Source of the DNA: Alphaproteobacteria bacterium
GTDB taxonomy: Bacteria > Pseudomonadota > Alphaproteobacteria > JBFXJJ01
Assembly (NCBI GenBank): GCA_050175015.1
Contig: JBFXJJ010000022.1
Span: forward strand, 1 to 22,410
DNA: 22,410 nucleotides
Reading direction: 5' to 3'
Part shown: piece after piece, positions 10,040 through 22,022 of the stretch
Layout: each line of letters begins with the position of its first letter
How positions within the stretch are numbered: position 1 is the first letter of the stretch
Notes under the pieces: generated by a model
Databases searched by the model: none
Seen by the model: the letters and a program-made list of their open reading frames with translations, nothing else
What the model was told of the DNA's origin: nothing
Program-made: the position numbers and the translations under genes

Positions 10040-10831
10040 ATGAAATATATCAAATATCTTGCTTTGATTTTGGTTGCGGCTTTTATTGCGGCTGCGGTTT
10101 ACTTTAAATCATTTGATAATTTTAAAGCTTTTTTTAATAAAGCTGAAGAAAGTGTATCATCTGTAGAAACGCCTTCTGTAGAAACTAAAAAAGAAGAAAG
10201 CTCTGCCCCAGATAATAACGCAAAATTGCAAATATCACGTGATGAGTTGATAAAGCGTGGAGAAAGTGGTGATATTAAATCTCAAATTCTTCTTGGTGAT
10301 ATGTATCGTCTTGACGGAACAGAATATGGCTTTACCCAAGATGCAAAAGAAGCTTTTAAGTGGTATAAAAAAGCAGCAGACCAAGGCGATGCTTTTGCAC
10401 AGTATAATTTAGCTTTTCTTTATTATGATGGTGAAGGCGTTGAGCAAGATTACAAATCGGCATTTGAATGGTTTAAAAAATCTGCGGAACAAGGTTACAT
10501 TGAAGGACAATATAACTTGGCTTCTCTTTACCGTATGGGAAGAGGGGTTGAAGCAAATCCTGAAGAAGCTTTCAAATGGCTTGAAAGGGCTGCTAATCAA
10601 GGTTATGACCAAGCTCAACTTGCTATGGGAACTTTGTATGAAGCTGGGCAAATTGTTGATAAAGACCCTATGAAAGCTTTAATGTGGATGACTTTATTAT
10701 CGCAAAATGGCGAAGAACAAACAAAAGAATATCTCAAATATTTTCTTGAAAAAAACACTTATACTCCAGAGCAAATTGCTGAAGCTGAAAAACTTGCAAG
10801 AGAATGGAAACCTGTAAAAGAGCAAAAATAG
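10040..10831 (+). CDS. Exported or membrane-anchored Sel1-like repeat protein
   Basis: Hydrophobic N-terminus, low-complexity linker, four Sel1 repeats (AQYNL..LY..G.GV..D...AF.W.KK.A.QG) and a C-terminal QIAEAEKLAREW cap; AAGGA RBS. Confidence 0.93.
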   Translation: MKYIKYLALILVAAFIAAAVYFKSFDNFKAFFNKAEESVSSVETPSVETKKEESSAPDNNAKLQISRDELIKRGESGDIKSQILLGDMYRLDGTEYGFTQDAKEAFKWYKKAADQGDAFAQYNLAFLYYDGEGVEQDYKSAFEWFKKSAEQGYIEGQYNLASLYRMGRGVEANPEEAFKWLERAANQGYDQAQLAMGTLYEAGQIVDKDPMKALMWMTLLSQNGEEQTKEYLKYFLEKNTYTPEQIAEAEKLAREWKPVKEQK

Positions 10832-11512: not shown

Positions 11513-11540
11513 AGTAGCTTTTATTTAATCGTACTTTTGT

Positions 11541-11584
11541 TTTGCTTGACAGCAGCCTTAACAGGCAATTTTTTGCTTTTAGTA
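11541..11584 (+). repeat. 44-bp direct repeat, copy 1 (hairpin plus T tract)
   Basis: TTTGCTTGACAGCAGCCTTAACAGGCAATTTTTTGCTTTTAGTA; 41/44 identical to 11748-11791. Confidence 0.9.
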
Positions 11585-11681: not shown

Positions 11682-11747
11682 TTTGCGAAGCAATATGAAT
11701 CTAATAAGTTTTAAAGCTTTTGGATTTTAGGACGTTTTTTACTATTT

Positions 11748-11791
11748 TTTGCCTGACGGCAGCCTTAACAGGCAAGTTTTTGCTTTTAGTA
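11748..11791 (+). repeat. 44-bp direct repeat, copy 2
   Basis: TTTGCCTGACGGCAGCCTTAACAGGCAAGTTTTTGCTTTTAGTA; its tail continues into the palindrome TTTTGCTTTTA-G-TAAAAGCAAAA ending at 11800. Confidence 0.9.
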
Positions 11792-15143: not shown

Positions 15144-16274
15144 ATGAAATTTGGAAAAAGAAATTTATTCTTAGTTATTGCTGTTATCACTGCGGTTTCT
15201 GCGGTTGCTGGTATCAAGGTTTTCCAAAATCAGAAAGAGGCTGTATCTTCAGATAAAAAAATGTCTTCTTTAGATTTGGAGCTTTTTGACGCTATAAGAA
15301 ACGGGAAAGATGTATCTGCCATCGAAAAGATAATTAAAAAAGGCGCCAATGTTGATGTTCACTATGTTATAAGTGGCGAAGATGCTTTTAGTGAAAAAGA
15401 TGAAACCCCATTAATTGCGGCCATAAACAGTAAAAGAGATTTAGAGGTAATCAAACTTTTGCTAAAATATGGTGCTGACGTAGAAAATGCCTCTAATCCT
15501 AATGGTTATTTATGGTTAACTCCTTTGCATATTGCAATTTTAAATAATCCAGATCCTAAACTTGTAGCTTTGCTTTTAGAAGCTAAAGCTTCTGTTGACT
15601 ATGATTCTGGTGAAGGCGTTTCACCACTTATCGGAGCATCTTCTATCAATAATCCCGATATTATCTTTCCGATAGTGAAAGTCAGCGTTAATCCTCAAGC
15701 CTTAAATATAATGCTTAGTTTTGCATCAGAAAACAATTCGCCTCAAATTATTGGTATGTTGTTGGAGGCTGGAGCTGATATTAATTATCAAAACTGCCAT
15801 AGTTATTTAAGTGCAGGCGAAACGCCATTGGCAAAAGCCGTAGAAGGTGGAAACTTGGAAGTAATGAAACTTCTTATAGAAAAAGGAGCAGATGTTAATA
15901 AAGTAGAAAATTGTCCTCAAACAGATACTATGAGCCATAATCTTACACCGATAATGCACGCTGCCAAAAATATTGAAGCAATGGATATTTTAATAAAAGC
16001 AGGGGCAGACATTAAGGCGAAAGATCAAAAAGGCAATTCTTTGTTGATGTATGCTTCAAGGTACACGCAAGATGCCGAACCAGTAAAACAACTGCTTGAT
16101 TTAGGACTTGATGCAAACGAGACCAACCAAGATGGAGAATATGCAATCGACTGGGCAATTAATTCCAAAAGTGGAATTGATGTAATCTGTTCTTTAATTA
16201 GAGCTGGCGCTAATAAAAGCAAAAATAATGAAAAAGCCTTTTTATATTTTAAAGATGATTGCCTCAAAAAATAA
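15144..16274 (+). CDS. Exported or membrane-anchored ankyrin-repeat protein
   Basis: N-terminal hydrophobic segment; repeated TPL..A......++.LL..GADV/IN ankyrin units through the protein; GAGG RBS. Confidence 0.93.
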   Translation: MKFGKRNLFLVIAVITAVSAVAGIKVFQNQKEAVSSDKKMSSLDLELFDAIRNGKDVSAIEKIIKKGANVDVHYVISGEDAFSEKDETPLIAAINSKRDLEVIKLLLKYGADVENASNPNGYLWLTPLHIAILNNPDPKLVALLLEAKASVDYDSGEGVSPLIGASSINNPDIIFPIVKVSVNPQALNIMLSFASENNSPQIIGMLLEAGADINYQNCHSYLSAGETPLAKAVEGGNLEVMKLLIEKGADVNKVENCPQTDTMSHNLTPIMHAAKNIEAMDILIKAGADIKAKDQKGNSLLMYASRYTQDAEPVKQLLDLGLDANETNQDGEYAIDWAINSKSGIDVICSLIRAGANKSKNNEKAFLYFKDDCLKK

Positions 16275-16432: not shown

Positions 16433-16879
16433 CTATTTTAAGTTTTCAGGCTTTACAATTAAAGTTGCACCATCTAGCCCTTCAACCACAACTTTTGTTC
16501 CTATCTCTAAGTCTTCCTGACACTCGATGCGCCATTCCGAATCTCCAACTTTTGCTTTTCCGATACCGTTTTCAACAGCTTTTGAAACCACAAAAATTTT
16601 ACCAATCATTTGTTCTTCTTTGCGGTTCAAGCTAGGGTGATTGGTGGGCTTTTCTCTTGATTTAACAAAACGTTTTCCGAGATATGCACACAAAACCGAT
16701 AAAATCGCAAAAAAGACGCCTAAAAATTCAAAAGATATTGCAGGAAAAGCAAAGCTTAAAATACCAGTTATGAAGGCACTTACGGCAATCCATACAAAAA
16801 AGGTTGTTGGTGTTATAATTTCAGCAATTAGTAAAAATACACCGACGACAAACCAATGCCAATAATCAAATTCTATCAT
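16433..16879 (-). CDS. NfeD-like (YbbJ-type) membrane protein with C-terminal OB fold
   Basis: W...G..LLIAEI..P N-terminal TMs, LNR....MIG and G..KVGDSEWR motifs; adjacent to an SPFH gene. Confidence 0.92.
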   Translation of the reverse strand: MIEFDYWHWFVVGVFLLIAEIITPTTFFVWIAVSAFITGILSFAFPAISFEFLGVFFAILSVLCAYLGKRFVKSREKPTNHPSLNRKEEQMIGKIFVVSKAVENGIGKAKVGDSEWRIECQEDLEIGTKVVVEGLDGATLIVKPENLK

Positions 16880-16902
16880 TGATATTCCTAAAATATGAAG
16901 GG

Positions 16903-17853
16903 TTATGGTTTAGATATTGGGATAAAAGGATTAGATTTTCCTGTGTTATCTTCGGATATAACTGCTTTTGCAAGTTCACCTATCCCTGCAACAGAACCAG
17001 CCATATTAGCCAAATCAAGAGGCAGTAAAACCAGTTTTTGATTTGGAGAATGAAGAATAGAATTTAAGGCTTCGATGTATTTCTGACCAAGAAAATAATT
17101 TAGAGAGTTTACATTGCCGCTGGCGATAGCATCAGAAACCATTTTGGTAGCTTTGGCTTCGGCTTCAGCCAAACGTTCTCTAGCCTCAGCTTCTCTAAAT
17201 TCGGCTTCTTTTTTACCTTCAGCTTTTAAAATAGCAGATTGTTTTTCACCTTCGGCACGGTTAATTGCAGCTTGACGATAACCTTCGGCTTCTAAAATTG
17301 AAGCACGTTTTTCTCTTTCTGCTTTCATTTGTCTAGCCATTGCTTCAACCAAGTCCGTTGGCGGTTGAATGTCTTTTATTTCAATACGGGTAACTTTTAT
17401 GCCCCAAGGATTAGTTGCTTCATCAACGACGCCTAATAATCTGGCATTAATGATGTCTCTTTGGGATAAAAGTTCATCAAGATCCATACTGCCCATAACG
17501 GTTCTGATGTTTGTCATTGTAATTTTCATAACGGCAAAATGAAGTTGTCTTACTTCATAAGCGGCTTTTACGGCATCTAATACCTGATAAAAAACCACTC
17601 CATCAACTCTAACCATAGCGTTATCTTTGGTAATAACTTCTTGAGAAGGTACGTCCAACACTTGTTCCATCATACTAAATTTGGCACCGATACGGTCAAC
17701 GATTGGAACAATTATATGCAGTCCAGGTTCTAAAGTTTGGGTATAACGTCCAAAGCGCTCAACGGTAAATTCCATACCTTGAGGAACAACCTTAACGCCC
17801 ATAGAAACGAAAAGAAAACCAAGGACTATTGCTAAAATGACGAAAGTTTCCAT
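16903..17853 (-). CDS. qmcA: SPFH/band 7 (stomatin-like, QmcA/YbbK-type) protein
   Basis: VERFGRY, PSQEVITKDNA, WGIKVTRIEIKDI, QMKAEREKRA and AEA-rich coiled coil; AAGGAG RBS (17861-17866). Confidence 0.93.
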   Translation of the reverse strand: METFVILAIVLGFLFVSMGVKVVPQGMEFTVERFGRYTQTLEPGLHIIVPIVDRIGAKFSMMEQVLDVPSQEVITKDNAMVRVDGVVFYQVLDAVKAAYEVRQLHFAVMKITMTNIRTVMGSMDLDELLSQRDIINARLLGVVDEATNPWGIKVTRIEIKDIQPPTDLVEAMARQMKAEREKRASILEAEGYRQAAINRAEGEKQSAILKAEGKKEAEFREAEARERLAEAEAKATKMVSDAIASGNVNSLNYFLGQKYIEALNSILHSPNQKLVLLPLDLANMAGSVAGIGELAKAVISEDNTGKSNPFIPISKP

Positions 17854-17983
17854 TAAAAAACTCCTTAAAAATTAAAAAATAAATATAAATTATTTGAATG
17901 TTATTATTACTTGATAACGATTTTTTAGCAATTAAAAATATGCTAAAAGCCAAAAGCGATAAGGATAAAAATAAAATTTCCAT
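17792..17983 (-). CDS. Possible small membrane or leader peptide (63 aa)
   Basis: ATG directly follows the tandem RNA element, with GAGAG 8 nt upstream. The N-terminus MEILFLSLSLLAFSIFLIAKK is TM-like. It overlaps the SPFH start out of frame and may be spurious in AT-rich DNA. Confidence 0.3.
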   Translation of the reverse strand: MEILFLSLSLLAFSIFLIAKKSLSSNNNIQIIYIYFLIFKEFFNGNFRHFSNSPWFSFRFYGR

Positions 17984-17989
17984 AAAAAA

Positions 17990-18077
17990 AGCTCTCAGTC
18001 TGGTAAGATAGGTTTCAAGCCCATCTTACCGATACTAACGGAAAGTCTTTCTTTTCGACATAACCGTAGTGAGAGCT
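17990..18077 (-). ncRNA. Candidate structured cis-regulatory RNA, three-way junction, 3' copy (88 nt)
   Basis: P1 AGCUCUCA/UGAGAGCU; P2 ACGG..GUC-GAAAAGAAA-GAC..CCGU; junction UAGUAUC; P3 GGUAAGAUGGG-CUUGAAA-CCUAUCUUACC; ends in a U7 run. Confidence 0.7.
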
Positions 18078-18082
18078 AAAAA

Positions 18083-18170
18083 AGCCACCAATCCAATAAA
18101 CGAGATTTTCAGATCCCTTTTATTGATACTAACGAGAAGTCTTTTCCTCAACATTCCCGCAGTGAGAGCT
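18083..18170 (-). ncRNA. Candidate structured cis-regulatory RNA, three-way junction, 5' copy (88 nt)
   Basis: P1 AGCUCUCA/UGGUGGCU; P2 GCGGGAA.GUU-GAGGAAAA-GAC.UUCUCGU; junction UAGUAU; P3 CAAUAAA.GGGAU-CUGAAA-AUCUC.UUUAUUG; ends in a U6 run. Confidence 0.7.
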
Positions 18171-18178
18171 TAATTTTT

Positions 18179-18207
18179 AATATATCACAACCCCGCTTTA
18201 TTTTTAA
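18179..18207 (-). promoter_or_regulatory. Putative sigma70-type promoter for the tandem RNA
   Basis: Minus strand reads TTAAAA-N17-TATATT with an extended -10 TGn. The predicted start near 18172 is within a few nt of the first base of the 5' RNA copy. The AT-rich context weakens the match. Confidence 0.45.
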
Positions 18208-18242
18208 ATGGTTTTAGTGATATTAACGCAAATTTTTTAAAA

Positions 18243-18581
18243 CTAGTGATCGCAAACGTTGCTGCCAGTTTCTAAATTTCCTTCAAGATATGCTTTGGTA
18301 AGTGTTTCTGGTTTATCATTAGCTGCCCCGACAATTACTTTTATGCCATTTTCAGCAAAAAGAGATAGCGCTCTTTGTCCCATACCGCCTGCGATAATTA
18401 AATCGACATTTCTTTCTTTGAGCCAGCGGGGAAGAAGTCCTGGTTCGTGAGGAGGGGGGACAACACTTTCTTGTTTTAAAACATTTTTTTCATTCTCATT
18501 AACGTCTAACAAAGCGAAAGTTTCACAATGTCCAAAGTGATTTGCAAGTTTTCCGCCTGCCATAGGTATAGCTATTTTCAT
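18243..18581 (-). CDS. NifB/NifX family (dinitrogenase FeMo-cofactor-like) small metal-binding protein
   Basis: MKIAIP, HFGHC, PPPHEPGLLP, IAGGMG and C-terminal CDH; AGGAG RBS. Confidence 0.9.
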   Translation of the reverse strand: MKIAIPMAGGKLANHFGHCETFALLDVNENEKNVLKQESVVPPPHEPGLLPRWLKERNVDLIIAGGMGQRALSLFAENGIKVIVGAANDKPETLTKAYLEGNLETGSNVCDH

Positions 18582-18597
18582 TTGTATTCTCCTAAAA

Positions 18598-19473
18598 TTA
18601 TTTTGTGATTTTTAAGTTATAAAGTTTTTCCCATATCAGAGTAATTTCTTCTGCGGCTTTAGGGCAGATTTCCATTATAGTCTGACGTTTTTTTTGGCTT
18701 AGATTAAAGTTTTTGTTATAACTAATCCTGCCAGCAATTATTGCTCCTTTTTTTTGAGCTTCTTCTTCAATGTTGGTTGTAATTTCTTCGTTAATATCCC
18801 ATTTGTTAACACAGATAAAACTTGGAATTTTAAAATGATTTGTTAGTTCAAGAACTCTTATAGCATCGTGAAGTCCCGATACCGTCGGTTCTGTTACTAT
18901 TAAGACCTTATCTGCTCCAGTTATAGAGGCAATAGCAGGGCAGCTGGTTCCAGGAGGGCCGTCAACTACAATAGTATCTAAATGTTTCTCTTGTGCAATG
19001 TTCTTGGCAAAGGTTCTTACTTGAGATACAAGTTTTCCAGAATTCTCAGCCCCTGTTTCCATTTCTGCATATATCATATCACCTAGTTCGGTATCCGAAA
19101 CAAGTATTTTGCCGCACAATTTAGGGTTAAAGTCTATAGCTTTTTCGGGGCATAGTATTACGCATAGTCCGCAGCCTTCACAAAGAAGAGGATCTATATA
19201 AAGCTTATTTTGAGCATCTTTTTTTATGGCATTGAACTTGCAATTATTATAGCAAGTGTTACAGCCTGAACATTTTTGTTGATTTATTGCCGCTTCTTTA
19301 CCGCAAAGAAAAGGAACGTCTTTTTTGGTTTTAGGATTTAAAATGATATGAAGATTAGCTGCATCGACATCACAGTCTGCAATGACAAGGTTCTGAGCTA
19401 GACTTGCAAATGCTGCGGTAATGCTGGTTTTTCCTGTTCCGCCTTTGCCGCTTATAACTACTAATTCCTGCAT
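18598..19473 (-). CDS. MinD-superfamily P-loop ATPase with inserted 2x[4Fe-4S] ferredoxin domain (COG1149 type), second paralog
   Basis: SGKGGTGKT, DCDVDAANLH, CSGCNTCYNNC, CEGCGLCVILCP, ENSGKLV, DGPPG.SCP and VTEPT motifs. The ATG at 19473 (MQELVV) with AAGGA RBS is preferred over the track start at 19482. Confidence 0.92.
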   Translation of the reverse strand: MQELVVISGKGGTGKTSITAAFASLAQNLVIADCDVDAANLHIILNPKTKKDVPFLCGKEAAINQQKCSGCNTCYNNCKFNAIKKDAQNKLYIDPLLCEGCGLCVILCPEKAIDFNPKLCGKILVSDTELGDMIYAEMETGAENSGKLVSQVRTFAKNIAQEKHLDTIVVDGPPGTSCPAIASITGADKVLIVTEPTVSGLHDAIRVLELTNHFKIPSFICVNKWDINEEITTNIEEEAQKKGAIIAGRISYNKNFNLSQKKRQTIMEICPKAAEEITLIWEKLYNLKITK

Positions 19474-20306
19474 AATAAACAATCCTTAATTTTTTCTTTT
19501 AAATCCAAGAATTTTTTTTGATATTGCGGCATTTCATCAATAATAATATTGCCTTTAGAATAATTTTTTGCAATTTGAATGTCTTCAGGAATATCAGCAA
19601 AAACATCAATTTTTTCAGCATTACAAAAATCGCTTATGAGATTTTTTTCAGAAGTTGTGCGATTAATTACAACCCCAAAAGGAATATTCATCTGTCTAAT
19701 TAGCCTTACGGCAAGTTTTAAATCGTTGAGGCCAAAAGGGGTCGCTTCGGTTACTAGTATTACAAAGTCAACATCAGTTAAAGTGCTTATTACAGGGCAA
19801 GAAACACCTGGCGGTGAGTCAATTATGGTTATTTCATTTTGTGTGGTTTTAGCTTTTAGTTTTTTAATTAATGGTGTTGCCATAGCTATCCCAATATCTA
19901 AGAAACCGCTTAAAAGTTTTATGTTATCAATTTGAAAGGTTTTAATAACGCCAACAGGCTTTTCAATTTCTGAGATGGCTTTCTGCGGGCAGATTTTTAT
20001 ACAGCCGCCGCAGCTATGACACATTTCTGGAAAAACAAGAATTTTTACTCCCAAAGAAGCTAAAGCATTAAACTCACAAAAAGAAGAACATTCTCCGCAA
20101 ACATTGCAGAGTTCATCGTTTATCTTTGGTATTTTAGTATAAACGGTTTCTTCGTTTTCTGGCTGGCTTTTAAGGAAAAGATGACAATTAGGCTCTTCTA
20201 CATCGCAGTCGATAAGAGTAACCTTTTCCTTAAAGGCTTTGGCCAAATTAACAGCTACGGTGGTTTTACCTGTGCCACCTTTTCCAGATGCAATCGCTAT
20301 TTTCAT
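19461..20306 (-). CDS. MinD-superfamily P-loop ATPase with inserted 2x[4Fe-4S] ferredoxin domain (COG1149 type), first paralog
   Basis: ASGKGGTGKTT, DCDVEEPN, CNVCGECSSFC, CHSCGGCIKICP, DSPPGVSCP and VTEATPFGLNDL motifs. Confidence 0.92.
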   Translation of the reverse strand: MKIAIASGKGGTGKTTVAVNLAKAFKEKVTLIDCDVEEPNCHLFLKSQPENEETVYTKIPKINDELCNVCGECSSFCEFNALASLGVKILVFPEMCHSCGGCIKICPQKAISEIEKPVGVIKTFQIDNIKLLSGFLDIGIAMATPLIKKLKAKTTQNEITIIDSPPGVSCPVISTLTDVDFVILVTEATPFGLNDLKLAVRLIRQMNIPFGVVINRTTSEKNLISDFCNAEKIDVFADIPEDIQIAKNYSKGNIIIDEMPQYQKKFLDLKEKIKDCLLCRN

Positions 20307-20324
20307 AATAAATCAGCTAAAAAA

Positions 20325-22022
20325 TTATTTCTCACGAGGGTAGGGCCAAGCCATAATCCCGCCTTCTAGAACTTTAACATTTTTAAAGCCGCTAGCTTCA
20401 AGAATTAAAGCTGCTTCATATCCTCTTAAAGATATTTTGCAATAACATATAATTTCTTGATTTCTATCTTGCGGCAACTCGTTTAATCTTTTGCGTAAGG
20501 CTCCTAAAGGAATTAATGTTTCGCCAACGCCAAGTCTCATCGCCTCATATTCATCAGGTCCTCTGACATCTAGCAAATAAGGTTTCTGATTGGCTTCCAG
20601 CTTAGCTTTAACGGTTACAGCACTAAGTCCTTTTAAACGGTCTTTTAGTTTGTTTTCCATTATATGTGCGGTTGCTATGCTGTGATCTAAAGCGAGAGAA
20701 AAAGGTGGAGCATAAGGCAAGTCATTATTTATCATATCTTCGAGTGTTAGCTTGCCTTTAATAGCTGTTGCCCAAATCGCAATTTGTTTAGAAACGTCTC
20801 CGATGCCAACGCATTGCGCTCCTAATATTTTGTTGTCTTTGCGATTTACAACCAATTTAGAGATTAAAAGCTTGCCATTCATAAATCCTGGTTTGTCTGG
20901 ACTGGCATTAACTACTGTTTCAATATCATCAAAACCGTTTTGCTTAGCGGCTTTTTCGCTTAATCCTGTTGAACCTGCCGCATATTCAAAGATTTTGCAG
21001 ATACCTGTTTGAATGGTTCCTGGAAATGACGCTTTGTCTCCGATAATGGCATTTTCGCCTGCAACTCTGCCTTCTAAATTTGCCAAGTCGCCATAGGGGG
21101 CGTGAACTTTATTGCCTGTGATAATGTTTTCAATTTCAACACAGTCTCCCGCAGCATAAATGTCGGGATCTGATGTTTTCATATGTTTATCAACAATAAT
21201 ACCGCCTGTCTTGCCGATTTCAATACCGGCTTCTTTTGCTAATTTTGAGTTAGGCTTAACTCCAATGGCAAGAACGGCAAGCTGGCATTCAATTTCTGTT
21301 CCGTTGCTTAATTTTATGCCTGTTAATCGCCCATCTTTGCCAATGAATGATTTTAACCCATTTTCAAGGTAAATATTTACATCTTTACTGCGGATATAAT
21401 TTTCAACTATTTTTGCCATATCCCAGTCAAGAAAAGTTAGAACTTGAGACTGCATTTCGATGATTGAAACTTCAATGCCTGCCAGTCTTAGAGCTTCACA
21501 AGTTTCAATTCCAATTAAACCCCCGCCGATAACAACGGCTTTTTTTATTTTCTTTTCATCTCTTATTTTTCTTAAGTAATCCGCATCTTGCATACTTTGA
21601 AGGGTTGTTATGCCATCTAAATCTATTCCTTCGATAGGAGGACGATTAGCTGTAGCTCCAGTTGTAATAATCAATTTGTCATAAGATAGTTCTTCTTTTT
21701 CACCTGTTTTTAAGTTTTGGCATAAAACGGTTTTAGCTTTACGGTTAATTGATAAAACTTCGGTTTCTGTTTTGGCGTTTATTTTTTTTACATTCATATA
21801 AAAATTTGGGTCTCTAACGACACCTGTTGGTGTGCATAACAGCATATTACGGTTGTCGAAACAGCCGCCGACATAATAAGGGTAGCCGCAGGAAGCCATA
21901 GATAGTTCAGCTCCCTTTTGGATTATTGTGATTTCGGCATTTTCATCAATTCTTCTAGCTTTTGCAGCTGCCTTAGGACCTGCTGCAGATCCTCCGATAA
22001 TAATAATTTTTTTGTTTTCCAT
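20325..22022 (-). CDS. CoA-disulfide reductase / NADH oxidase family flavoprotein fused to a rhodanese domain (persulfide reductase-like)
   Basis: FAD GGSAAG, redox Cys SMASCGYPYY, NAD-binding GGGLIGIE, YAAGD, YAPPFS; rhodanese LLDVR, YCKISLRG and LEGG..AW. Confidence 0.93.
   Translation of the reverse strand: MENKKIIIIGGSAAGPKAAAKARRIDENAEITIIQKGAELSMASCGYPYYVGGCFDNRNMLLCTPTGVVRDPNFYMNVKKINAKTETEVLSINRKAKTVLCQNLKTGEKEELSYDKLIITTGATANRPPIEGIDLDGITTLQSMQDADYLRKIRDEKKIKKAVVIGGGLIGIETCEALRLAGIEVSIIEMQSQVLTFLDWDMAKIVENYIRSKDVNIYLENGLKSFIGKDGRLTGIKLSNGTEIECQLAVLAIGVKPNSKLAKEAGIEIGKTGGIIVDKHMKTSDPDIYAAGDCVEIENIITGNKVHAPYGDLANLEGRVAGENAIIGDKASFPGTIQTGICKIFEYAAGSTGLSEKAAKQNGFDDIETVVNASPDKPGFMNGKLLISKLVVNRKDNKILGAQCVGIGDVSKQIAIWATAIKGKLTLEDMINNDLPYAPPFSLALDHSIATAHIMENKLKDRLKGLSAVTVKAKLEANQKPYLLDVRGPDEYEAMRLGVGETLIPLGALRKRLNELPQDRNQEIICYCKISLRGYEAALILEASGFKNVKVLEGGIMAWPYPREK

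What the first reader, a model, noticed from the sequence alone, without database searches (positions are those of the whole stretch)
17984..18207. Tandem pair of 88-nt three-way-junction RNAs: candidate undescribed riboswitch or regulatory RNA upstream of SPFH-NfeD
Seen on the minus strand: two units of identical length (18170-18083 and 18077-17990, period 93 nt), each ending in a U6-7 run. Both begin AGCUCUCACU and share AUGUYGA, AAGACUU and CGUUAGUAUC. Several P2 differences keep pairing (A-U to G-U, G-C to G-U, C-G to U-G). P3 is completely different in sequence (GGUAAGAUGGG/CCUAUCUUACC versus CAAUAAA.GGGAU/AUCUC.UUUAUUG), yet both form 11-12 bp stems capped by C(U)UGAAA. P1 closes in both despite a diverged 3' strand (UGAGAGCU versus UGGUGGCU). 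The many G-U pairs work only on the minus strand, and a plausible promoter starts transcription at about the first base. Structure kept while stem sequence turns over points to selection on an RNA fold, not a neutral duplication. I could not match it from memory to TPP, FMN, SAM, cobalamin, glycine, c-di-GMP, NiCo, yybP-ykoY, M-box or fluoride consensus. Inference: a tandem aptamer or attenuator controlling the small ORF and the stomatin-like operon, or an array of processed small RNAs.
Basis: partly seen in the sequence, partly recalled or inferred. Interest (0 to 1): 0.9.

Follow-up and report, generated by a model that had tools for sequence, protein, structure and literature searches.

The report
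Orphan three-way-junction small RNA pair
Two back-to-back copies of a small folded RNA of about 88 bases, in no known RNA family, sit in front of a membrane-protein operon; a third copy beside unrelated genes in a distant bacterium suggests a stand-alone small RNA gene, not a switch for that operon.

Summary
On the minus strand, unit A (18170-18078) and unit B (18077-17984) each fold into the same three-way junction (P1, P2, P3), and each ends in a run of 6-7 U.

Between the two copies, 10 of 28 base pairs changed and none broke.

Rfam 15 has no match.

A covariance model built only from these two copies found one further copy. It lies in G055, a genome of another order (38.7 bits). That copy has the same fold, the same invariant 5' AGCUCUCACU, AGUAUC junction and CUUGAA loop, and a U-run.

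With three sequences, 12 pairs show compensatory changes.

In G055 the RNA lies upstream of hipBA, not SPFH. SPFH orthologues in three relatives lack it. A switch dedicated to SPFH-NfeD is therefore not supported.

My best reading, at about 0.5, is a stand-alone small structured RNA gene. Its closing helix plus U-run would act as the terminator, and it is tandemly duplicated here.

The family is rare: 3 copies in 2 genomes, and nothing in the roughly 380 other genomes, metagenome contigs, viral contigs, plasmids or phages searched. No expression data exist and the function is unknown.

The parts
18179..18208 (-). Promoter-like site (TTTAAA, 18 nt, TATATT, with TG before the second hexamer). 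It ends 8 nt before the first base of unit A.
   Evidence: This is a consensus scan only: 6 sites in the region against 3.1 +/- 2.1 in shuffles. The 11-mer TGTGATATATT at 18189-18179 occurs only 3 times in the 2.53-Mb genome.
18078..18170 (-). Unit A: an 88-nt three-way-junction RNA (18170-18083) with a U6 run (18083-18078). P1 is 18170-18164 with 18089-18083. P2 is 18163-18157 with 18135-18128. P3 is 18125-18114 with 18105-18094.
   Evidence: R1 scores 103.8 bits and R2 92.2 bits. Helix coordinates were converted by me from the alignment columns.
17984..18077 (-). Unit B: an 88-nt three-way-junction RNA (18077-17990) with a U7 run (17990-17984). P1 is 18077-18071 with 17996-17990. P2 is 18070-18064 with 18041-18034. 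P3 is 18031-18020 with 18012-18001.
   Evidence: (-34.3 kcal/mol, z -4.87). R1 scores 113.1 bits and R2 106.1 bits. Helix coordinates were converted by me from the alignment columns.
17889..17931 (-). Two overlapping promoter-like sites between unit B and the SPFH start codon (TTGCTA-17-AATAAT and TTATCA-17-AATAAT). They could give SPFH-NfeD its own promoter.
   Evidence: This is a weak consensus match in AT-rich DNA.
16433..17853 (-). Downstream neighbours, not shown to be controlled by the RNA: the SPFH/Band 7 gene (16903-17853) and NfeD (16433-16879).
   Evidence: PF01145 at 6.9e-37; PF01957 at 2.6e-14. Searches show no RNA at the SPFH orthologues of 3 relatives.
18243..18581 (-). Upstream neighbour: a NifX/NifB-like (Nitro_FeMo-Co) gene. 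It ends 73 nt before unit A and is the last gene of a cluster with two MinD/Fer4 ATPases and a CoA-disulfide-reductase-like/rhodanese gene.

Best explanation
Each unit is a stand-alone gene for a small structured non-coding RNA of about 88 nt.

Inferred mechanism:
- Transcription starts at or within a few bases of the invariant 5' AGCUCUCACU, from a sigma-70-type extended -10 promoter directly upstream.
- The RNA folds into a three-way junction. The junction (ACU/AGU base of P2, AUC, GAY) and the P3 loop (CUUGAA) are conserved, and P2 and P3 are free to covary.
- The closing helix P1, followed at once by a U-run, serves as the 3' end, either as an intrinsic terminator or as a protective stem.

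In this genome the gene has been duplicated head to tail. Unit B has no room for a promoter of its own. It is most likely made by read-through of unit A, whose P1 is weakened to G-U pairs and one mismatch. That would give a ~190-nt dimer or two monomers.

The conserved junction and loops most likely bind a protein, a small ligand or another RNA in trans. Neighbouring genes are not the conserved target.

Shown: the fold, the covariation, the conservation across two orders, the single locus per genome and the unrelated neighbours. Inferred: the transcription start, termination at the U-run, action in trans, and any partner.
For: 1. The fold is conserved through sequence change. Between units A and B, 5 one-sided and 5 two-sided changes occur in 28 pairs and none breaks a pair.

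2. There is an independent homologue. Model R1 was built from the two window copies only. It found G055:C78:855-943(-) at 38.7 bits, E 2e-6 per genome, among 150 other genomes of the class.
- That sequence alone folds into the same P1/P2/P3 architecture (-26.8 kcal/mol, z -2.78, 1 of 200 shuffles as good).
- It ends CCUUUUAUUU.

3. With three sequences, 95% of cells pair and 12 of 28 pairs have changes on both sides (P2 3, inner P2 3, P3 6). 0 of 500 shuffles reach this, and slid controls give 0-3. A structure-blind MAFFT alignment gives the same junction, with 12 of 31 pairs compensatory.

4. The neighbours are unrelated.
- In G000 the order is a NifX-like gene, the RNAs, then SPFH-NfeD.
- In G055 the order is a PNPOx-like gene, a terminator hairpin, the RNA, then a HipB-like HTH gene and HipA.

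5. In G055 a 40-nt direct repeat (90% identical) flanks the RNA. Each copy carries the same promoter-like TTTACC-16-GATAAT, so the RNA and hipB each have a promoter copy.

6. All 3 of 3 copies have P1 followed by a U-run. All lie in intergenic DNA.

7. There is one locus per genome.
Against: - No transcript evidence exists. No RNA run holds the stretch, and the DNA runs add no variants.
- Promoter calls are consensus matches in AT-rich DNA and are not enriched over shuffles.
- The terminator scan called no terminator. P1 encloses about 70 nt, so this is not a canonical hairpin terminator.
- Only three sequences from two genomes support the family, so covariation cannot be tested statistically in the R-scape sense. 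The structure was derived from the same sequences on which the pairs were counted.
- P1 itself shows no two-sided covariation. Its 5' strand is identical in all three copies, which fits sequence-level rather than purely structural constraint.
- Unit A alone does not fold better than shuffles (z -1.43).
- Both copies lie 85-130 nt upstream of a gene on the same strand, so a cis role is not excluded.
- No partner or target is identified.
Confidence: 0.5

Rival explanations
1. Cis-acting attenuator or riboswitch-like sensor. A ligand or protein would bind the conserved junction and stabilise P1. With the U-run, P1 then terminates transcription before the downstream gene (SPFH-NfeD here, hipBA in G055). 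The tandem arrangement would sharpen the response.
For: - All three copies are on the same strand as, and 85-130 nt upstream of, the next gene.
- A conserved junction and loops with covarying helices are what aptamers look like.
- P1 directly abuts a U-run.
- Tandem complete switches are known for other classes. This point is recalled and was not tested here.
Against: - The downstream genes are functionally unrelated (SPFH against HipB/HipA).
- 0 of 3 SPFH orthologue loci in relatives carry the RNA, with model filters off.
- G000's own two HipA-domain loci are elsewhere and gave no model hit.
- In G055 a second copy of the promoter-like repeat lies between the RNA and hipB. In G000 promoter-like sites lie between unit B and SPFH.
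- I saw no alternative anti-terminator pairing. The 331-nt fold keeps the junctions.
- There is no match to any of the 4227 Rfam families.
Confidence: 0.2
2. 3'-end element of the upstream operon. The units would be unusual branched terminators or RNA-stabilising structures that end the CoADR-MinD-MinD-NifX transcript. They would have no function as separate RNAs.
For: - No canonical terminator is called between the NifX-like stop (18243) and unit A.
- Each unit ends in a U-run.
- The promoter evidence before unit A is weak.
Against: - In G055 the upstream gene ends about 660 nt before the RNA, and a separate hairpin with a U8 run lies at about L119 1232-1182, before the RNA.
- A plain terminator does not need a conserved junction, a conserved P3 loop or an invariant 10-nt 5' end across two orders.
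- Two terminators in tandem, each with compensatory changes, are hard to explain by termination alone.
Confidence: 0.1
3. Relic or selfish structured repeat without present function. It would be a short palindromic element, P1 being its terminal inverted repeat. It was duplicated locally, and its hairpins are kept by DNA-level processes such as template switching, not by selection on RNA.
For: - The two P1 strands form 8-9-nt inverted termini.
- Unit B folds equally well on both strands.
- The G055 copy is flanked by a 40-nt direct repeat.
- Only two genomes hold it.
Against: - There is one locus per genome, not dispersed copies.
- All 5 one-sided changes between A and B keep pairing only through G-U, which works on the minus-strand RNA and not in DNA or on the other strand.
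- By my own arithmetic, chance would keep each such pair 1 time in 6 to 1 time in 2, giving 0.0001 to 0.03 for 5 of 5.
- Junction and loop sequences are conserved between two orders whose MiaA proteins are only 46% identical.
Confidence: 0.1

Closest known systems
Tandemly duplicated bacterial small RNA genes (for example PrrF1/PrrF2 of Pseudomonas or OmrA/OmrB of E. coli; recalled, not tested here)
   Same: - Short non-coding genes sit side by side in an intergenic region.
- Each ends in a stem plus U-run.
- The copies have diverged, and read-through dimers are possible.
   Different: - Those RNAs have single-stranded seed regions, and each copy has its own promoter.
- Here the two ends of each RNA are paired to each other in a closed three-way junction.
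- Unit B has no room for a promoter (6 nt between units).
- There is no sequence similarity to any Rfam sRNA family.
Three-way-junction riboswitch aptamers (the purine riboswitch type; recalled architecture)
   Same: - About 70-90 nt with a P1-P2-P3 junction.
- Conserved junction nucleotides and covarying helices, with conserved hairpin loops.
   Different: - No Rfam riboswitch model matches, even at E up to 10 on 451 nt.
- The downstream genes are unrelated in the two genomes.
- No separate expression platform is present. The U-run follows P1 directly.
Bacterial Y RNAs (Ro/Rsr-associated; recalled)
   Same: A small RNA whose 5' and 3' ends pair in a conserved stem that closes a multi-branched body.
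   Different: - No TROVE/Ro gene was found in 0 of 5 genomes tested, G000 and G055 included. The control genomes did match.
- No Rfam Y-RNA match.
- No tRNA-like module by ARAGORN.
Miniature inverted-repeat elements and REP-like intergenic repeats (recalled)
   Same: About 90 nt, with inverted termini, an intergenic position and strong hairpin potential.
   Different: There is a single locus per genome instead of tens of dispersed copies. The G-U pairs are strand-specific.

Membership tests
Any Rfam 15 family | Score at or above the family's gathering threshold | tested here: not met
   0 matches in the whole window at gathering. At E up to 10 on 17850-18300 the best matches are far below threshold: MIR169_2 15.8 against 50 bits, rli52 18 against 70, and dfrA-dnaX 21.9 against 48.6.
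Riboswitch (cis-regulatory aptamer) | A conserved structured domain supported by covariation | tested here: met
   12 of 28 pairs have two-sided changes in 3 sequences, and 0 of 500 shuffles reach this. The same junction comes from a structure-blind alignment. With only 3 sequences there is no R-scape-type statistic.
Riboswitch (cis-regulatory aptamer) | Recurrent position in the 5' UTR of functionally related genes | tested here: not met
   SPFH-NfeD lies downstream in G000 and HipB/HipA in G055. 0 of 3 SPFH orthologue loci of relatives hold it. There are only two contexts, so the test is weak.
Riboswitch (cis-regulatory aptamer) | An expression platform with mutually exclusive structures | tested here: inconclusive
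   The U-run follows P1 directly. The 331-nt fold shows no anti-terminator, only an alternative outer pairing of A's 5' strand with B's 3' strand.
Riboswitch (cis-regulatory aptamer) | Specific ligand binding | not testable with these tools
   This needs in-line probing or ITC.
Independent small RNA gene | Own promoter directly upstream | tested here: inconclusive
   Promoter-like sites end 8 nt (G000) and 14 nt (G055) before the first base. I also read a TG-preceded AATATT nearer the G055 start directly. The site counts do not exceed shuffles.
Independent small RNA gene | A stem followed by a U-run at the 3' end | tested here: met
   3 of 3 copies: U6, U7 and U4AU3 right after P1. The simple terminator scan does not call them because the 'loop' is a branched 70 nt.
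Independent small RNA gene | A discrete transcript detected | not testable with these tools
   No RNA run is listed for this stretch.
Mobile or dispersed intergenic repeat (MITE/REP) | Many dispersed copies in one genome | tested here: not met
   G000 has only the one locus by blastn and by the model. G055 has one copy.
Type III toxin-antitoxin RNA repeats | A tandem repeat array directly followed by its endoribonuclease toxin gene | tested here: not met
   The downstream genes are SPFH and NfeD. The G055 copy is single.
Y RNA | A Ro/TROVE protein encoded in the genome | tested here: not met
   PF05731 matched in 0 of 5 genomes, including G000 and G055. It matched in 2 of 14 control genomes.
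tRNA / tmRNA | Cloverleaf or tmRNA recognised by ARAGORN | tested here: not met
   0 genes in 17800-18400.

The most novel reading that the evidence does not exclude
A new class of compact sensor RNA. In this reading the closing helix P1 of the conserved three-way junction is itself the intrinsic terminator. Binding of an unknown ligand or protein to the invariant junction and the CUUGAA loop would then directly decide termination. The RNA would be used singly before hipBA in one lineage and as a tandem, more switch-like pair before SPFH-NfeD here. It may be tied to hipBA-type promoters in both genomes.
Probability: 0.15. Interest if true: 0.75.

Novelty: new member of a known kind. Interest (0 to 1): 0.45.

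Why it matters
If real, this is a previously undescribed structured RNA family from two poorly sampled bacterial orders. Each order is represented by a single species genome in the collection.

The conserved junction and loops with freely covarying helices are the signature of an RNA that binds something specific, so it is a candidate for a new RNA-protein or RNA-ligand pair.

The tandem copy gives a natural experiment in how duplicated structured RNAs diverge while keeping their fold.

Its value is limited by rarity (3 copies in 2 genomes), by uncultured hosts and by the lack of any functional hook. It does not by itself open a long-standing question.

Tried and rejected
**A wider family**
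- blastn of both units against 60 class genomes gave 0 of 60.
- A strict pattern in genome contigs gave 0.
- R1 on the 80 SPFH loci from genome contigs gave a best hit of 12.8 bits, E 4.2.
- A 17-base pattern in viral contigs gave 28 loci, none confirmed by R1 (best 12.8 bits).
- The improved pattern AGCTCTCACT..AGTATC..GAYTGRKRGC gave:
  - 2 of 401 class genomes, namely G000 and G055, with 0 in the reversed control;
  - 0 in metagenome contigs;
  - 0 in viral contigs.
- blastn 'distant' against plasmids and phages gave no match.
- R2 on 150 class genomes gave only weak extra hits, E 0.16-0.84 per genome. I inspected them and rejected them. The G014 hit lies antisense inside a 362-aa ORF with z +0.54, and the others lack the conserved motifs.
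- R2 on 80 further class genomes gave 0 at E <= 0.05.
- R2 on 150 genomes of the phylum gave two 27-bit hits in G440. Both lie antisense inside long ORFs (723 aa and 569 aa), so I rejected them.

**Anchoring on a neighbour**
- NfeD in metagenome contigs matched 299 pattern stretches, but none encodes a relative.

**Expression and strain variation**
- No RNA holder is listed.
- X1 is the probable source sample. X2, from the same study, holds an identical 251-nt contig over 17961-18211. No variant falls in the RNA.

**A third, decayed copy** upstream was rejected at 2.7 bits.

**A link to hipBA in G000**
- The 11-mer TGTGATATATT of the RNA's -10 region occurs 3 times in the genome: at the RNA, 21 nt upstream of the hipB-like ORF's TTG start codon on contig C20, and inside a coding sequence.
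- The RNA promoter has only a half-site of the palindromes seen before that hipB.
- The HipB-like proteins of G000 and G055 are not close (E 49 and 1e-4).
- I keep this as an unproven lead.

**Y RNA** was rejected because no TROVE gene was found. **tRNA-like** was rejected because ARAGORN found none.

**Self-cleaving ribozymes.** There is no Rfam match. By eye there is no CUGANGA/GAAA hammerhead core; that consensus is recalled.

**Literature**
- A full-text search for the invariant 10-mer returned 116 papers. The 10 listed are unrelated by title, so these are primer coincidences (listing only).
- 'NfeD' plus 'riboswitch' returned 4 papers. The 3 listed are unrelated by title and abstract start (listing only).
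- I read no paper. Supplements were not consulted.
- Any statement that the RNA is not in print rests on these two searches and on Rfam only.

**Relatedness of G000 and G055**
- MreB is 88% identical, against 85-90% for four other genomes. MiaA is 46%.
- PBP2 was uninformative for G055 (E 2.9e-62, probably a partial gene).
- I could not decide between vertical descent and transfer.

Genome G040 is flagged as unpublished. It enters only as one of the counted genomes (no RNA match; a PBP2 match).
Full report
**What is there**

Read on the minus strand, the 260-nt gap between a NifX-like gene (18243-18581) and an SPFH/Band 7 gene (16903-17853) holds two head-to-tail units.
- Unit A runs 18170-18083 and is followed by six U.
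- Unit B runs 18077-17990 and is followed by seven U.
- The period is 93 nt.
- The copies are identical at 66 of 96 aligned columns. Shared blocks include AGCUCUCACU at the 5' end, AUGUYGA, AAGACUU and CGUUAGUAUC.
- No ORF of 40 aa or more covers the units.
- A 63-aa ORF starts at the ATG right after unit B (17983) and runs into the SPFH gene in another frame. I see no Shine-Dalgarno sequence before it, and it has no counterpart at the homologous locus described below. I did not test it by homology search.

**The fold**

Each unit alone folds into a three-way junction. P1 joins the two ends, P2 carries an inner stem-loop, and P3 is a long hairpin.
- Unit B is far more stable than shuffles (-34.3 kcal/mol, z -4.87).
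- Unit A is not (-21.9 kcal/mol, z -1.43). Its P1 has two G-U pairs and one C-U mismatch.
- RNAalifold gives 28 shared pairs.
- Counted on the two copies, 18 pairs are unchanged. Five changed on one side and stay paired through G-U. Five changed on both sides, all in P3, and stay paired. None is broken.
- Slid controls pair 34-48% of cells, against 100% for the structure itself.

The structure was derived from these same sequences, so the 100% figure is partly circular. Two features are harder to explain that way. First, all five one-sided changes are the single substitution that keeps an RNA pair; by my own arithmetic chance would give 0.0001 to 0.03 for 5 of 5. Second, the opposite strand of unit A loses the fold (-9.3 kcal/mol, z -0.01). 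Both point to selection on the minus-strand RNA. Unit B folds equally well on both strands.

**Not a known family**

Rfam 15 gives no match at gathering thresholds in the whole window. It gives only sub-threshold noise at E up to 10 on the locus. ARAGORN finds no tRNA or tmRNA.

**Copy number and relatives**
- In the window's own 2.53-Mb assembly (99.4% complete) the element occurs only here, by blastn and by model R1 built from the two copies.
- The genome is the only species genome of its order in the collection.
- The best matches of its SPFH protein are metagenome-assembled genomes labelled Gammaproteobacteria, at up to 76% identity. The class is probably that one, by inference.
- Sequencing runs holding the stretch come from one landfill-metagenome study. 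One is the likely source, and a second holds an identical fragment. No RNA run is listed, and no variant falls in the RNA.

**One independent homologue**

R1 was run over 150 other genomes of the class and found one clear match, G055:C78:855-943 on the minus strand (38.7 bits, E 2e-6 per genome). G055 is also alone in its order.
- It is about as close to G000 as the other nearest genomes. MreB is 88% identical against 85-90% for four others, and MiaA is 46%.
- The G055 RNA is a single copy.
- It starts with the same AGCUCUCACU. It keeps GAGUAUC at the P2/P3 junction, CUUGAAC in the P3 loop and GGAUUGAGAGC at the 3' side of P1. It ends CCUUUUAUUU.
- On its own it folds into the same P1/P2/P3 junction (-26.8 kcal/mol, z -2.78). 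Its opposite strand does not (z -1.26).
- P2 and P3 differ in sequence from both window copies. The AUGUYGA and AAGACUU blocks shared by A and B are not conserved in G055, so they are not core features.

With three sequences, 95% of cells pair and 12 of 28 pairs have changes on both sides, in P2, inner P2 and P3. 0 of 500 shuffles reach this. RNAalifold on the model-fitted alignment gives 13 such pairs. RNAalifold on a structure-blind MAFFT alignment gives 12 of 31 pairs.

P1 shows no two-sided change. Its 5' strand is invariant in all three copies.

**The context argues against a switch for SPFH-NfeD**
- In G055 the RNA lies between a PNPOx-like gene and a HipB-like HTH gene, which is followed by a HipA gene. 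The PNPOx-like gene is followed by four ~50-nt tandem repeats and a hairpin with a U8 run.
- A 40-nt direct repeat, 90% identical, flanks the RNA. Each copy carries the same promoter-like TTTACC-16-GATAAT. The RNA and hipB therefore each have a copy of that promoter-like sequence, which fits two transcription units.
- G055 has an SPFH-NfeD pair elsewhere (73% identity). Another ORF lies 18 nt upstream of it, and the model finds nothing there.
- The SPFH loci of G002 and G018 also lack the RNA.
- G000 has two HipA-domain loci on other contigs, and the model finds nothing there.

Neither neighbour is conserved.

In the window, promoter-like sites also lie between unit B and SPFH (17931-17889). 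A TG-extended promoter-like site ends 8 nt before unit A. These are weak consensus matches in AT-rich DNA.

**How widespread**

Beyond these three copies I found nothing convincing.
- Model searches of 150 and 80 genomes of the class and 150 of the phylum gave only weak hits. These lie antisense inside long ORFs or lack the motifs.
- An exact pattern matching all three copies hit only G000 and G055 among 401 class genomes.
- The same pattern hit nothing in the metagenome contigs or the viral contigs.
- Plasmid and phage collections gave no blastn match.

These are samples, so the RNA is 'not found in those searched', not absent.

**Most likely mechanism**

I read each unit as a small stand-alone RNA gene.
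- A promoter sits directly upstream.
- Transcription starts at about the invariant A1.
- The junction and P3 loop are conserved for binding a partner.
- P1 plus the U-run forms the 3' end.

In this genome the gene is duplicated head to tail. Only 6 nt (the U-run) separate the units, so unit B probably depends on read-through of unit A. Unit A's weakened P1 would make a leaky terminator.

The 331-nt fold also allows the 5' strand of A to pair with the stronger 3' strand of B, enclosing both bodies. A ~190-nt dimer is therefore plausible.

Shown: fold, covariation, conservation across two orders, single locus per genome, unrelated neighbours. Inferred: start site, termination, action in trans, and the partner.

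Confidence is about 0.5. The rivals are:
- a riboswitch-like attenuator in which P1 is the terminator (0.2);
- a 3'-end element of the upstream operon (0.1);
- a functionless structured repeat (0.1).

**A lead not resolved**

The 11-mer TGTGATATATT, which covers the RNA's -10 region, occurs only three times in G000: here, 21 nt upstream of the hipB-like ORF's TTG start codon on contig C20, and once inside a coding sequence. Together with the promoter duplication at hipB in G055, this hints that the RNA is driven by hipBA-type promoters.

Against this, the G000 RNA promoter has only half of the palindrome seen before that hipB. The HipB-like proteins of the two genomes are not close. A shared extended -10 box could also explain the match.

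**Novelty and verdict**

The RNA belongs to no described family.

The proposed role as a tandem riboswitch for the stomatin-like operon is not supported. The alternative of small RNAs fits better.

It is a new, rare member of the broad kind 'small structured bacterial RNAs'. Its function is unknown and there is no expression evidence. Interest is moderate.

Noticed in passing
L119 (G055:C78) 1234-1438, and 1182-1232: Four tandem repeats of about 50 nt, each with a short GC hairpin (repeat finder D1 and D3). On the minus strand they are followed by a hairpin with a U8 run. They lie between a PNPOx-like gene and the RNA homologue. The arrangement recalls a repeat-RNA array, but no toxin gene follows.
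   Followed up: no
L119 (G055:C78) 808-847 and 951-990; also 760-778: A 40-nt direct repeat (90% identical) flanks the RNA homologue. Each copy carries a promoter-like TTTACC-16-GATAAT. An inverted repeat (760-778 with 808-826, 89% complementary) with an ATAATATATTAT core lies before hipB and looks like an operator.
   Followed up: partly
window 18179-18189 (-); G000:C20:11913-11923 (L138 1141-1151): The 11-mer TGTGATATATT occurs 3 times in the whole genome: at the RNA's -10 region, just upstream of a HipB-like gene next to two GATATATT-NN-AATATAT palindromes, and once inside a coding sequence on C26. This may be a shared promoter or operator type, or a coincidence.
   Followed up: partly
window 11540-11584 and 11747-11791: A 45-nt direct repeat (93% identical, 207 nt apart) lies in the gap between a GNAT gene and a Mur-ligase gene. 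Each copy holds a TTGCCTG...CAGGCAA hairpin followed by a T-run on the plus strand, and another hairpin (AAGGATTTTTTCCTT...) lies between them. These may be paired terminators or another small RNA locus.
   Followed up: no
window 10040-10831 and 15144-16274: A Sel1-repeat protein (three 108-nt DNA repeats at 10347-10607) and an ankyrin-repeat protein lie in a low-GC 2.5-Mb genome. Such eukaryote-like repeat proteins are common in host-associated bacteria (recalled), which hints at the lifestyle.
   Followed up: no
window 18243-22022 (-): A cluster typical of anaerobes: a CoA-disulfide-reductase-like gene with a rhodanese domain, two MinD/ParA-type ATPases with 4Fe-4S ferredoxin inserts, and a NifX/NifB-like small protein. 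It sits directly upstream of the RNAs in an otherwise housekeeping region (mreBCD, pbp2, rodA, miaA, ddl).
   Followed up: no
window 17792-17983 (-): A 63-aa ORF starts at the ATG right after unit B's U-run. It has a hydrophobic N-terminus and overlaps the SPFH start in another frame. I see no Shine-Dalgarno sequence, and there is no counterpart after the G055 RNA. It is probably spurious.
   Followed up: partly
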